NCBI RefSeq assembly: GCF_048403405.1
Contig: NZ_CP183129.1
Length of the DNA: 64,000 bases
DNA from: Escherichia coli
GTDB taxonomy: Bacteria > Pseudomonadota > Gammaproteobacteria > Enterobacterales > Enterobacteriaceae
Strand: one strand, 5' to 3'
A program made the position numbers. The first letter of the stretch is position 1. Each line of letters opens with the position of its first letter. This document shows positions 41,901 through 44,900 of this stretch, in pieces.

Positions 41901-44900
41901 CGCCGCTATCAGGCACAAATCAATGCGCTGAAGGCGACGCTGGACAGCCAAAAAATAACGGTATCGGTGATTCAGGCAAATCAGGGAAAAATTAATGTGA
42001 TGCATAGCTATCATTCGCTGGGGCGGGTATTACGCGATGCTGGTTTTCGCTTTCCGCCGCTGATTGAGAGCATTCCTGAAGGTGGGCGAATGGATGTGAG
42101 CGCAGAGCGTTTACCTGAACTGGATGCCGATTTTGTTTTTGCAACCTGGCGCGGTGACACCGGTGGTAAACCTCAGGATGAGCTGGCAGCAATGGAAAAA
42201 GTCATGCCGGGATGGTGTCAGTTTCTGACGGCCTGTCGTTCCGGGCGCTATGTGCTGATTTCTCGTGAAGAGGCGATTTCTAACTCCTTTGCATCTCTGG
42301 GGCTGATGGCTGCGCAGATACAATCACAAATTGCGGGACGACCTCTACCGGAGGCTAAATGATCCAGAAAGACAAAACGCGGGTTGATATTTATGGTGAG
42401 CGTTTTCGCACTCGCGCGAGTCAGTTAACGCCTGGGTTAAGAACTGTCGCAAGCTACATTAATGAGCATCGTGAAGTGGTACTCGAGCAAACGGCGATGG
42501 AAATTGCGGCCACGTTGAACACTTCCGATGCCACAGTTATCAGGGCTATACAGGCTCTGGGGTTTGCCGGGCTGCGTGATCTGAAACGCACACTGGAACA
42601 GTGGCTTGGTCCAGCCCTTAGTTCCAGCGAAAAGATGTCTACGACGGTGAGTAACTTGACGAGCGATGTTAACACCGCAATCGACTTTGTTCTTGAAGGG
42701 CATTTGTATACTTGTAATGTCCTGTCAGAGCCTGAAAACCGCCACGCGCTTGCGCAAGCTGTAGCGTTGTTGGTGCAGGCACGGCAAGTCGCTATTTTTG
42801 GCATTGGCGCTTCGGGTATCCTGGCGGACTATACCGCACGACTATTCAACCGCATAGGTTTGCCTGCCACGGCACTAAACCGTACGGGTATTGGCCTTGC
42901 CGAGCAACTGATCGCGCTTCAACGTGGCGATGTTCTGATCATGATGGCGCAAAAATCTGCGCACCGGGAAGGGCTGACAACGCTTCGTGAGGCGAGGCGG
43001 CTGGGGATCCCTGTTATTTTGCTGACAAACGCGCTGGATTCACGTTTTAGCAAAGACGCCAGTATCGTGATTCATGTTCCGCGCGGGGATGAAAGGGGGA
43101 AAACGCCACTACATGGTACGGTATTGTTGTGCCTGGAAATGATTGTTTGGTCGGTGGCTTCCGCGATGCCGCAGCGTGCGGTTAAAACCATTAAGCGAAT
43201 TAACGATTTCCATCGGGGTTTGAAAACGGGAAGAAAGAATGGCTAATCTGACCTGAGGCCGGTAGCAACACCGGCCTCTTTTCAGGAATGTTAAATCCCC
43301 GGTTGCAGAATACGGATATTCATCTCCAGCACGTCGCCTTTTACGGCTTCGCTGTACGCCTTCATGTGCGGGGTTTGCAGATGCGCTTCAAGATGCGCGA
43401 TGCTTTCCCACTGCTCAATCATCACGATAGAATCCGGTGCCATAGACTGGAAACTCACGCCAGCAGCGCAATCCACCATTGGCGTATAGCCGTGGCAACC
43501 TTCTTCTTTCAGTACGGTTGGAACGATTTTAGCAAACTGATCCAATACTGCCTGACGGTGATGTTGACCAGGACGAGTACGGATTTCTGCGATTACGGTA
43601 AGCATGGTTAACTCCTTCTAAAGCCTGAGCTCTAGTTAACCAAAAATTTCCACAAGATGCTTGCGATATTCTTCAGTATAGCGGGGAACATCAGGCATTT
43701 TTATCACGTCATTAGCGATAAATGTCGGCAGCGGTTCCATGCCAAGGAATTGGTTTGCTTTATGGAACGGCAGATACACACCGTCAACGCCAACGCCGTG
43801 GAAGAACTGATCTTTTTCGGTGAAGGCTTCCATTGGTGCGTTCCAGGTCAGAGAAAGCATATATTTTTTGCCCTGTACCAGGCCGCCGGAACCGTATTTT
43901 TTCGACGGATCTTTGCGGGTACGACCATCGCTGGCATACAGCGTCCCGTGACCTTCGGTGAATACATCATCAATGTATTTTTTCACTGTCCACGGCGCGC
44001 CCATCCACCAGCCTGGCATCTGCCAGATCACCACATCAGCCCAGAGAAAGTTTTGTACTTCCGCTTTGACATCGTAGTCGCTGTCGGCGCGAACGATGCG
44101 GACATCATGCCCGAGGTCGCGCAACGTGCCATCCGCGACTTCGGTCAGGGTGTCGTTCAGTTGACCATTGGAGTGGGCGAATTTTTTCGCGCCGTTGATA
44201 ATCAGGATGTTGCTCATTTTTTAACCTCAAGGTGAGACGTTTGTCGACTATAGTACGTCACAGAGCGGTACGGTGAAATTAGCAAAATGTGCAAAGTCTT
44301 TTGCTAATTTAGCAAAAGTCTGATCTTGCTCTGATTCACCGATGCGGGATAAATATTTTCTGAAAATGACAATACTGAAATCAACTTCCTATAAGTTCCC
44401 ACAGGAGAGATGTATTATGTAAATGATAAAGTAGTTTTTCGGAAAAAATAATCATGGAGAATATATATGTCAAATATCATATACTTATCAATTAAAGGAA
44501 AAACACAAGGTTTGATCTCTGAGGGCTGTGGTTCGTATGCATCTATTGGTAATAAATATCAAATAAATCATGTGGATGAAATTTTTGTTTTACAGTTCGA
44601 CCATTCTTTAAGTCGAGAATATAATGTAGTGCATCATCCCATAAAATTTTACAAGCCAATAGATAAATCCTCTCCTTTATTAAATGCTGCTCTTTCTGAA
44701 AATGAAGAGTTATCAGCTGTATTTAATTTTTATAGAATTAATTCTGGCGGTTGTATTGAAAGGTTTTACACAATTGAATTGCAAGGGGCATATTTATCGA
44801 ATATTCTGACTTGTTATCCACACTCAATTACACATGCGGGTAATCAACCGGAAGAGGTCATTGTTCTTAATTATAAAAATATAACATGGAAGCACCATAT

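What the first reader, a model, noticed from the sequence alone, without database searches (positions are those of the whole stretch)
42359..43246. RpiR/SIS-family regulator translationally coupled to the end of an iron-type ABC importer operon
Siderophore uptake operons are normally controlled by Fur, sometimes with AraC-type or sigma/anti-sigma regulators. Here the last gene overlaps the binding-protein gene by ATGA and encodes an RpiR/MurR-type protein with an HTH and a SIS (phosphosugar-binding) domain. This pairing is unusual. It suggests the transported substrate, or a breakdown product of it, contains a sugar or sugar-phosphate moiety, for example a glycosylated siderophore, or that the system is not an iron importer at all.
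Basis: inference. Interest (0 to 1): 0.6.

Follow-up and report, generated by a model that had tools for sequence, protein, structure and literature searches.

The report
Known FitR repressor of fit operon
This gene is fitR, the already published RpiR-type repressor at the end of the Fur-controlled fit siderophore-uptake operon of pathogenic E. coli, so the odd pairing is real but not new; what the transporter carries and what FitR senses are still unknown.

Summary
ORF 42359-43246 (+) encodes a 295-aa HTH_6 + SIS protein, and its ATG overlaps the stop of the upstream binding-protein gene (ATGA).

The locus is not new. It is the published E. coli fitA / fitBCDE-fitR island, inserted between parE and ygiN. 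Ouyang & Isaacson (2008) showed that FitR is an auto-repressor. It binds the fitA-fitB intergenic DNA and acts independently of Fur.

My additions are predictions:
- The regulator-receptor pairing is conserved in 78 of 80 species-representative Enterobacterales loci, including 19 where a FitR orthologue sits beside a different TonB-dependent receptor.
- An invariant TGTAGTAGT element lies on the -35 regions of both divergent promoters. It matches the TGTAGT/ACTACA half-site of RccR, the closest solved homologue, so it is the likely FitR operator.
- FitR keeps only one of the four serines that bind the sugar phosphate in RccR.

The alternative, that this is not an iron importer, is contradicted by published Fur control and by the siderophore-type parts.

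Verdict: already known, low interest. The FitR ligand and the Fit substrate remain open.

The parts
36019..36046 (.). Perfect 12-bp-stem hairpin between the convergent parE and fitA genes; looks like a bidirectional terminator and marks the left edge of the fit island
   Evidence: Terminator scan
36054..38195 (-). fitA: TonB-dependent siderophore receptor, 713 aa
   Evidence: TIGR01783 6.8e-111. Best PDB relatives by sequence are FoxA/CntO, the enantio-pyochelin receptor and FhuA. PGAP product name. Named FitA in PMC2593036.
38294..38312 (.). Fur-box-like element A (GTAATTGAGAATCATTCAA). It overlaps the predicted fitA -10 (TTGAAT on the minus strand, 38307-38312)
   Evidence: Invariant in the 4-genus alignment and in the consensus of 71 unique orthologous sequences. 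The match to the Fur consensus is only 12/19 by my own count, which is not distinctive on its own. Fur control is published.
38324..38360 (.). Predicted FitR operator O1: TGTAGT(AGTAAA)-N25-GCTACA. The left half overlaps the predicted fitA -35 (TTTACT on the minus strand, 38330-38335)
   Evidence: The exact 9-mer is found at this position in almost every orthologous locus. An [AG]CTACA partner lies at a spacer of 25 nt in 51 of 88 plus-strand copies and 24 nt in 6 more. Same half-site as the footprinted RccR operators. Binding by FitR is inferred, not shown.
38486..38497 (.). Predicted FitR operator O2: TTGACTACTACA, which is the predicted fitB -35 (TTGACT) fused to the inverted half-site. The predicted -10 is CAAACT at 38509-38514
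   Evidence: Invariant in 53 unique sequences, with a CAnnAT hexamer at a fixed 17-nt spacing. Lies 165 bp from the O1 copy.
38522..38540 (.). Fur-box-like element B (GAGAATGAGTTTTATTTTT), just downstream of the predicted fitB -10
   Evidence: 13/19 to the Fur consensus. Conserved block GAGAATGAGnTTTATTTTTGTTTG in 4 genera.
38569..39378 (+). fitB: ABC transporter ATPase (GTG start)
   Evidence: Sub-cutoff FecE/FepC/FhuC-type hits; PGAP
39375..40358 (+). fitC: FecCD-family permease
40355..41404 (+). fitD: FecCD-family permease (PGAP starts it at 40367)
41415..42362 (+). fitE: periplasmic siderophore-binding protein, 315 aa, with signal peptide MRLFFSLLILLSFFARA
   Evidence: Essentially identical to PDB 3be5/3be6 (E 2e-195), named Ec-FitE in PMC10553834. 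PGAP start.
42359..43246 (+). fitR: RpiR-family auto-repressor (HTH_6 + non-canonical SIS). This is the finding.
   Evidence: experiments in PMC2593036
43255..43282 (+). GC-rich hairpin GAGGCCGGT-AGCAAC-ACCGGCCTC followed by TTTT; probable end of the fitBCDER transcript, facing ygiN
   Evidence: Read directly. It fell below the terminator scan's T-run threshold, so this is an inference.

Best explanation
The ORF is fitR, the last gene of the fitBCDE-fitR operon of the E. coli fit island. The island is a TonB-dependent, Fur-repressed siderophore-type iron uptake system, inserted between parE and ygiN and carried by about a third of complete E. coli genomes.

Shown in the literature: FitR is a DNA-binding repressor of the divergent fitA and fitB promoters. 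Because fitR sits in the fitB operon it also represses itself. It acts independently of Fur and iron.

Inferred here: FitR recognises TGTAGT/ACTACA half-sites, like its closest solved homologue RccR. One site (O1, TGTAGT-N25-GCTACA) covers the fitA -35 next to a Fur box. A second, inverted copy (O2, TTGACTACTACA) is fused to the fitB -35 next to another Fur box. Each promoter therefore carries two locks. Fur reports iron. FitR probably reports the presence of the cognate substrate, or a cytoplasmic derivative of it, through a remodelled SIS pocket that no longer looks like a phosphosugar site.

The ATGA overlap ties FitR synthesis to transporter expression, giving negative autoregulation. The inducer and the transported siderophore are unknown.
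For: Identity:
- Gene content and order match the published description.
- The 7.3-kb locus is 95-100% identical in 1873 of 5426 complete E. coli genomes, with the same PGAP products.
- FitE matches PDB 3be5/3be6, called Ec-FitE.

Function of FitR (PMC2593036):
- lacZ fusions and qRT-PCR show repression on overexpression, derepression in a fitR mutant and complementation.
- EMSA with specific competition on the fitA-fitB intergenic DNA.
- The fur fitR double mutant is additive: 23-fold (fur), 2.2-fold (fitR), 52-fold (both).

Conservation:
- Of 80 species-representative loci, 57 keep fitE directly upstream of fitR.
- Another 19 pair a 65-72% FitR orthologue divergently with a different receptor that is 34-38% identical to FitA.
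- Two more carry extra genes between fitE and fitR.
- A 45%-identical FitR ends an orthologous operon in a distant genome.

Operator:
- TGTAGTAGT occurs 151 times in 1.61 Mb of loci, against about 12 expected by my own calculation from sequence length. Nearly all copies are in these promoter regions.
- In the 64-kb window there are 3 copies against 0.11 expected.
- The partner half-site sits at a fixed 25-nt spacer in 51 of 88 copies although the spacer sequence varies.
- The motif follows FitR into the loci with a different receptor and into 40%-identical relatives.
- RccR (E 3e-15 by sequence, Foldseek 2e-16) is a tetramer footprinted on TGTAGT/ACTACA, including TGTAGTAGT in PaceA.
- The S-x-x-T-x-x-R pattern of the HTH helix (FitR S56, T59, R62) is invariant in the FitR clade and identical in RccR.
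Against: - The operator assignment is comparative only; no footprint exists. Because the motif is fused to the -35 hexamers, part of its conservation could reflect promoter function.
- My -35/-10 assignments score 8 of 12, below the threshold of the promoter scan, which found no site in the intergenic region.
- FitR's measured effect is modest (2-5 fold), and the protein used for EMSA was refolded from denaturant.
- That paper reports a 28-kDa product, whereas 295 aa predicts about 32.5 kDa, so the construct's start codon is uncertain.
- No inducer has ever been shown, so the substrate-sensing step is pure inference.
- The Fur-box matches are only 12-13 of 19 and are not distinctive by score alone.
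Confidence: 0.75

Rival explanations
1. FitR senses a sugar or sugar phosphate released from a glycosylated or sugar-containing siderophore, as HexR, RccR, MurR and NanR sense phosphosugars.
For: - The SIS fold is intact.
- The first phosphate-loop serine (GIGAS152G) and the arginine equivalent to RccR R152 (FitR R165) are kept.
- K199, H202 and R203 could still bind an anion.
- Variant operons carry two PstS-family-like (phosphate-binding-protein-like) ORFs between fitE and fitR.
Against: - Three of the four phosphate-binding serines of RccR are replaced (A197, K199, H202). In RccR the quadruple Ser-to-Ala mutant loses the KDPG response.
- NanR, the CFT073 c3406 isomerase (5uqi) and RccR all carry the canonical SxSGx[ST] loop where FitR has AQKSAH.
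- No sugar kinase, glycosidase or isomerase is conserved next to the cassette, and its flanks differ in every genus examined.
- The receptor and binding protein resemble hydroxamate, pyochelin and metallophore types.
Confidence: 0.12
2. FitR has no small-molecule effector. It is a constitutive negative-feedback damper that caps expression of membrane proteins once Fur repression is lifted.
For: - Only 1.4- to 5-fold effects were measured, with a similar ratio in iron-rich and iron-poor medium.
- No inducer has been reported since 2008.
- Translational coupling at the operon end is what a simple autoregulatory loop needs.
Against: - Residues in and around the former ligand pocket are invariant or nearly so across a family that has diverged to about 30% identity (E204, H252, R165, Y158, R242). 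This argues for a retained binding function.
- All characterised RpiR-family regulators that I found are effector-controlled.
Confidence: 0.2
3. The system is not an iron importer. The ABC transporter and receptor carry some other nutrient, and the iron-type annotation is misleading.
For: - The substrate has never been identified, and enterobactin is excluded.
- All equivalog-level NCBIfam hits for the receptor, ATPase, permeases and binding protein are below cutoff.
- Receptors of this family also import non-iron cargo; CntO, a metal-pseudopaline receptor, is among the best PDB hits.
Against: - fit is iron-repressed through Fur (23-fold in a fur mutant), lies in the direct Fur regulon and is iron-induced in Klebsiella.
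- Fur-like boxes at both promoters are invariant across about 20 genera.
- The receptor passes the TonB-siderophore subfamily cutoff.
- Variant operons add a PepSY_TM protein. Members of that family, such as FoxB, are known to me as ferrisiderophore reductases.
Confidence: 0.05

Closest known systems
E. coli Fit system, FitR (Ouyang & Isaacson 2006 and 2008; PMC2593036)
   Same: It is this system. Same six genes in the same order, the same HTH + SIS regulator as the last gene, and the same divergent fitA/fitB promoter region. FitE is identical to the crystallised protein 3be5/3be6.
   Different: Nothing in kind. The publications did not define the operator, the Fur sites, the ligand or the distribution outside E. 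coli. Those are addressed here only by prediction.
Pseudomonas RccR (PA5438; PDB 8k3b/8ju9) and its paralogue HexR
   Same: Closest solved homologue. Same HTH_6 + SIS architecture. Tetrameric repressor, autoregulated. Recognises TGTAGT/ACTACA with variable spacers, and the RccR PaceA site even contains TGTAGTAGT. The S-x-x-T-x-x-R pattern in the HTH helix is identical.
   Different: About 22% identity. RccR senses KDPG through four serines, of which FitR keeps one. RccR controls central carbon metabolism, not iron uptake. The predicted FitR half-site spacing (25 nt, plus a distal site about 165-190 bp away) differs from the short (3 nt) and long (14-16 nt) spacers of RccR.
Substrate-specific regulators of siderophore uptake: FecIR-type surface signalling, AraC-type PchR/YbtA/AlcR, and PfeSR-type two-component systems (from my own knowledge)
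   Same: Same logic: a Fur lock plus a second, system-specific regulator encoded with the transporter.
   Different: A different protein family and the opposite sign. FitR is a cytoplasmic one-component repressor, whereas those are activators or sigma/anti-sigma pairs. FitA also appears to lack the N-terminal signalling extension: it aligns to FoxA only from FoxA chain residue 79-131 onward. I did not examine this further.
PDB 3sho, SIS domain of an RpiR-family protein from Sphaerobacter thermophilus
   Same: Best sequence hit for the FitR SIS domain alone (Foldseek rmsd 2.6 A). It likewise lacks the SxSGx[ST] loop (SVWRYLRD against FitR AQKSAHRE).
   Different: A structural-genomics entry. 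No function or ligand is given in its PDB entry title, and it has no link to iron uptake.

Membership tests
RpiR/MurR family transcription regulators | N-terminal RpiR-type helix-turn-helix (Pfam HTH_6) | tested here: met
   PF01418, residues 14-81, 3.6e-10; six-helix N-terminal domain in the model
RpiR/MurR family transcription regulators | C-terminal SIS domain with a five-stranded alpha/beta fold | tested here: met
   PF01380, residues 138-246, 2.4e-13; five strands in the model; Foldseek hits to RccR, NanR, MurR and 3sho
RpiR/MurR family transcription regulators | Binds palindromic operators at the promoters of adjacent genes | tested here: inconclusive
   Binding to the intergenic DNA is published (EMSA). 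The conserved TGTAGT/ACTACA elements are predicted to be the sites, but there is no footprint.
Phosphosugar-sensing SIS regulators (HexR, RccR, MurR, NanR type) | Phosphate-binding Ser/Thr set: GxGxS loop plus S-x-S-G-x-[ST] loop (RccR S139, S183, S185, S188) | tested here: not met
   FitR has S152 but A197, K199 and H202 (numbering checked). The same loss is seen in all 24 aligned relatives and in the 99 nearest cluster representatives.
Phosphosugar-sensing SIS regulators (HexR, RccR, MurR, NanR type) | Encoded with genes for catabolism or transport of the sensed sugar | tested here: not met
   The neighbours are siderophore uptake genes only, and the flanks vary between genera.
Phosphosugar-sensing SIS regulators (HexR, RccR, MurR, NanR type) | DNA binding relieved or switched by the phosphosugar | not testable with these tools
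   Needs EMSA, ITC or thermal shift with purified FitR.
E. coli fit iron-uptake locus (fitA, fitBCDE, fitR) | Six genes: a divergent outer-membrane receptor, then ATPase, two permeases, binding protein and regulator | tested here: met
   against the description
E. coli fit iron-uptake locus (fitA, fitBCDE, fitR) | Sequence identity with a named Fit component | tested here: met
   FitE against PDB 3be5/3be6, E 2e-195 over residues 19-315; 3BE6 is named Ec-FitE. The i484 DNA sequence itself could not be retrieved because the 2006 paper is not held.
E. coli fit iron-uptake locus (fitA, fitBCDE, fitR) | Present in a subset of E. coli strains, mainly extra-intestinal pathogenic and phylogroup B2 | tested here: met
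   1873 of 5426 complete genomes. Association with B2/AIEC strains and absence from the commensal reference strains HS, IAI1 and SE11 are reported. I did not test phylogroup here.
Fur-regulated TonB-dependent siderophore uptake systems | Receptor with plug and barrel of the siderophore subfamily | tested here: met
   TIGR01783, 371.9 bits against a cutoff of 223.5
Fur-regulated TonB-dependent siderophore uptake systems | Fur box at the promoter | tested here: inconclusive
   Two 12-13/19 matches that are not distinctive by score but are invariant across genera. Fur control is shown experimentally in the literature.
Fur-regulated TonB-dependent siderophore uptake systems | Identified siderophore substrate | not testable with these tools
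   The literature states the substrate is unknown and is not enterobactin.

The most novel reading that the evidence does not exclude
FitR would represent a large, uncharacterised branch of the RpiR family whose SIS domain has lost the phosphosugar-binding serines and instead keeps an invariant Glu/His/Arg/Tyr set. In the Fit system this domain would sense the imported (xeno)siderophore or its iron-free or processed form in the cytoplasm. FitR would then be a one-component, substrate-inducible repressor of TonB-dependent uptake. That regulatory class differs from surface signalling, AraC-type activators and two-component systems, and it would be a new ligand class for SIS domains.
Probability: 0.3. 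Interest if true: 0.6.

Novelty: already known. Interest (0 to 1): 0.25.

Why it matters
As submitted, the finding rediscovers a published system, so it does not change what is known.

Some value remains. fit is enriched in extra-intestinal and adherent-invasive E. coli and is iron-induced in epidemic Klebsiella, yet its substrate is still unidentified. The predicted operator gives a direct handle. A PfitA reporter in a fur-deleted background should switch on only when the true Fit substrate is supplied, so FitR could serve as a biosensor to find that substrate. The non-canonical SIS pocket, shared by all 99 nearest relatives examined here, also warns against annotating every SIS domain as phosphosugar-binding.

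Tried and rejected
- The 2006 Infect Immun paper (PMC1698097) is not in the library. Statements about substrate tests therefore rest on citing papers.
- Scoring the window against the 19-nt Fur consensus did not single out the fit sites. 144 window positions (both strands) score at least 12/19. Fur-site support rests on conservation and published experiments.
- The sigma-70 scan found no promoter in the fitA-fitB intergenic region. My promoters are inferred from conserved hexamers at fixed spacing.
- I first considered a TATCCG-N16-CGGATA palindrome (38265-38292) as an operator or 5'-UTR hairpin. It is only partly conserved, and I dropped it in favour of the invariant TGTAGTAGT elements.
- I tested whether the link to iron uptake holds across the wider family. 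It does not. Relatives at 51%, 41% and 39% identity (L004, L006, L007) are not next to iron uptake genes. The link holds for orthologues of at least about 65% identity and for one 45% relative (L005).
- A third TGTAGTAGT at 17548-17556 lies inside a long ORF with no partner half-site, so I set it aside as a probable chance occurrence.
- Literature searches for any other RpiR-siderophore link or any later work on FitR returned nothing relevant.
- NCBIfam has no equivalog model for FitR.
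Full report
**Observation.** The ORF at 42359-43246 (+) is real. It has an ATG start and encodes 295 aa. Pfam finds an RpiR-type HTH (HTH_6, residues 14-81, 3.6e-10) and a SIS domain (residues 138-246, 2.4e-13). The AlphaFold model is confident (mean pLDDT 88.6), and its best PDB neighbours are the RpiR-family regulators RccR, NanR and MurR (Foldseek E down to 2e-16). The sequence ...GCTAAATGATCC... shows the ATG at 42359 overlapping the TGA stop at 42360-42362 of the upstream gene. That upstream gene encodes a Peripla_BP_2-type binding protein. 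It follows two FecCD permeases and an ABC ATPase, and a TonB-dependent siderophore receptor (TIGR01783, 371.9 bits against a cutoff of 223.5) is transcribed divergently. The description is therefore correct at the stated coordinates.

**What it is.** The window is E. coli chromosome. On one side lie cpdA, yqiA and parE, and on the other ygiN, mdaB, qseC and qseB. The six genes are an insertion between parE and ygiN. The 7.3-kb block is 95-100% identical in 1873 of 5426 complete E. coli genomes, and PGAP calls the last gene a MurR/RpiR family transcriptional regulator.

This is the published fit locus. Ouyang & Isaacson describe fitA (outer-membrane receptor), fitB (ATPase), fitC and fitD (permeases), fitE (binding protein) and fitR, and they note the N-terminal HTH and C-terminal sugar-isomerase domain of FitR (PMC2593036). 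The binding protein here is essentially identical to PDB 3be5/3be6 (E 2e-195), which a later paper names Ec-FitE.

- fitA and fitB fusions are repressed when FitR is overproduced, derepressed in a fitR mutant and re-repressed on complementation.
- Recombinant FitR shifts the fitA-fitB intergenic DNA, and unlabelled promoter DNA competes the shift away.
[quoted passage not shown] That Klebsiella paper states the substrate is unknown and is not enterobactin. fitA is enriched in B2/AIEC strains.

**Context in other species.** A scan of one genome per species returned 80 loci with FitR orthologues of 65-98% identity across Enterobacterales. These include Escherichia, Enterobacter, Kosakonia, Citrobacter, Klebsiella, Raoultella, Kluyvera, Erwinia, Pantoea, Tatumella and Serratia. 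By tblastn with the six E. coli proteins they fall into groups:
- 57 keep fitE directly upstream of fitR. Most of these also hold fitA-fitD; a few contigs are truncated or lack a FitA orthologue.
- 19 (mostly Pantoea and Serratia, with some Erwinia) have a FitR orthologue placed divergently next to a different receptor that is only 34-38% identical to FitA, with no fitBCDE. In L067 a FhuD-like binding protein follows that receptor.
- 2 (L044, L045) carry three extra genes between fitE and fitR. In L044, the one examined, these are a PepSY_TM protein (PF03929, 1.2e-54) and two PstS-family-like proteins.
- 2 are truncated or otherwise unclassified.

A 45%-identical FitR ends an orthologous operon in a more distant genome (FitA 53%, FitE 67%). 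That operon also has the two PstS-like genes. The genes flanking the cassette differ in each genus examined, and no sugar-handling or siderophore-biosynthesis gene is conserved next to it. The fitE/fitR junction is the same 4-nt overlap in 31 of the 57 loci and at most 17 nt apart in the rest. More distant relatives (39-51% identity) are not next to iron uptake genes.

**Promoter and operator (prediction).** Aligning the divergent promoter region from four genera showed a few invariant blocks in otherwise diverged DNA. With all loci the picture sharpens.

*The motif.* The 9-mer TGTAGTAGT occurs 151 times in 1.61 Mb, where I calculate about 12 expected from sequence length. Nearly all copies lie in the receptor/fit promoter regions. 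In the 64-kb window it occurs 3 times against 0.11 expected, and two of these are at 38324 (+) and 38489 (-).

*The fitA side.* The consensus of 71 unique sequences is TGTAATTGAGAATCATTCAA-N10-TGTAGTAGTAAA. Read on the fitA strand this gives a -35 (TTTACT), a 17-nt spacer and a -10 (TTGAAT) that lies inside a Fur-like box.

*The fitB side.* Fifty-three unique sequences share cTTGACTACTACA, followed after a 17-nt spacer by CAnnAT. A second Fur-like box follows (GAGAATGAG..TTTATTTTT).

*The partner half-site.* Downstream of the fitA-side copy, an [AG]CTACA lies at a spacer of exactly 25 nt in 51 of 88 cases and 24 nt in 6 more, although the spacer sequence varies. This includes the loci with a different receptor, where the partner forms the -35-like TTGACT in front of fitR.

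*Link to RccR.* The motif also flanks 40%-identical relatives in unrelated contexts (L006, L007). The closest solved homologue of FitR is P. aeruginosa RccR (8k3b/8ju9; E 3e-15). RccR is a tetramer that was footprinted on TGTAGT/ACTACA palindromes with variable spacers, and its PaceA site reads TGTAGTAGTCTTGAAAAAACACTACA. The S-x-x-T-x-x-R pattern of the HTH helix is invariant in the FitR clade and identical in RccR.

I therefore predict that FitR binds O1 (38324-38360) and O2 (38486-38497), each overlapping a -35 and each next to a Fur site. The distance between the two inverted copies falls into classes of 124, 166, 178 and 188 bp. All are roughly 8.5-10 bp modulo a 10.5-bp helical turn, which would fit looping by a tetramer. 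With only about four independent classes, this is no more than a hint.

**The SIS domain.** In RccR the KDPG phosphate is held by S139, S183, S185 and S188, and a quadruple Ser-to-Ala mutant no longer responds to KDPG. The alignment, whose numbering I checked against the paper, puts FitR S152, A197, K199 and H202 at these positions. NanR (SSSGST), the CFT073 c3406 phosphosugar isomerase 5uqi (SNSGET) and RccR (SQSGRS) all carry the canonical loop where FitR has AQKSAH. The same loss is seen in 24 aligned relatives down to 31% identity. It is also seen in all 99 full-length nearest representatives, whose loop reads roughly [LM]AY-Gxx[YH]xE, followed later by (A/S)LHG. Residues E204 and H252 are invariant and Y158, R165 and R242 nearly so. 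The only solved member of this branch is 3sho, a structural-genomics SIS domain whose PDB title names no ligand. The domain is therefore a conserved, probably functional pocket, but not a canonical phosphosugar site.

**Most likely mechanism.**
- Shown: FitR is an auto-repressor of both fit promoters, acting additively with Fur.
- Inferred with good support: it acts through TGTAGT half-sites on the two -35 regions, so each promoter needs both low iron (Fur off) and FitR release.
- Inferred with weak support: FitR is released by the transported compound or a cytoplasmic derivative, giving substrate induction of a xenosiderophore system. Translational coupling to fitE sets FitR in proportion to the transporter.

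**Rivals.**
This is disfavoured by the lost serines and by the absence of sugar genes. It is not excluded, because S152, R165 and nearby basic residues remain, and the PstS-like genes in variant operons are unexplained.
- No effector at all, only a simple feedback damper. The small effects and the lack of any known inducer fit this. The invariant pocket residues argue against it.
- Not an iron system. This is contradicted by the Fur data, the conserved Fur-like boxes, the siderophore-type parts and the PepSY_TM protein in variant operons.

**Novelty and score.** The finding as written is already known: the gene, its domains, its unusual place in an iron operon and its repressor function were published in 2006-2008. 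The predicted operator, the breadth of the FitR-receptor pairing and the non-canonical SIS pocket are modest additions and need experiments. Interest is low (0.25). The open questions, namely the Fit substrate and the FitR ligand, are real but are not opened by this observation alone.

**Caveats.**
- The 2006 paper could not be read.
- The Fur-box scores are not distinctive on their own.
- The promoter scan found nothing in the intergenic region.
- The 2008 paper reports a 28-kDa FitR, whereas 295 aa predicts about 32.5 kDa. Conservation of residues 10-45 favours the long start.

Noticed in passing
window 44467-45659: A low-GC (0.35-0.38) insert between mdaB and ygiZ carries an orphan Hcp/TssD gene (TIGR03344, 4.5e-59) followed by a 236-aa protein with no Pfam or NCBIfam match. 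This could be an Hcp-linked type VI effector module.
   Followed up: partly
L044 6926-9992, L045, and L005 7010-8946: Variant fit operons carry extra genes between fitE and fitR. L044 has a PepSY_TM membrane protein (1.2e-54) and two PstS-family-like proteins. L045 has an insertion of the same size that I did not examine. L005, a distant genome, has the two PstS-like genes. Their role in a siderophore operon is unexplained.
   Followed up: partly
L042, L052, L055, L057-L061, L063, L064, L067, L071, L074, L076, L078, L082, L083, L085, L087: FitR orthologues of 65-72% identity sit divergently next to a different FhuA/FoxA-like receptor (34-38% identical to FitA) with no fitBCDE. They keep the Fur-box + TGTAGTAGTAAA-N-ACTACA architecture.
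   Followed up: partly
window 38324-38497 and orthologous loci: The distance between the two inverted TGTAGTAGT copies falls into discrete classes (124, 166, 178, 187-188 bp) that share roughly the same helical phase. This hints at looping by a tetrameric repressor.
   Followed up: no
window 17548-17556 (-): A third exact TGTAGTAGT lies inside a 553-aa ORF (16182-17843, minus strand) with no partner half-site. It is probably a chance occurrence.
   Followed up: yes
window 38265-38292: A TATCCG-N16-CGGATA inverted repeat lies just downstream of the predicted fitA -10, in the likely 5' UTR. It is partly conserved, with one compensatory change in Erwinia (TGTCCG/CAGACA). It could be an RNA hairpin or an additional protein site.
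   Followed up: no
window 42359-43246, compared with PMC2593036: The 2008 paper reports purified FitR at 28 kDa, 'consistent with the predicted' mass. The 295-aa ORF predicts about 32.5 kDa, and an internal Met46 start would give about 27.5 kDa. The construct used may have lacked part of the HTH.
   Followed up: no
FitR relatives P0121-P0269: All 99 nearest full-length cluster representatives (26-66% identity) lack the canonical SIS phosphate loop and share [LM]AY-Gxx[YH]xE plus (A/S)LHG. This looks like a large, uncharacterised RpiR subfamily, whose only solved member is 3sho.
   Followed up: partly
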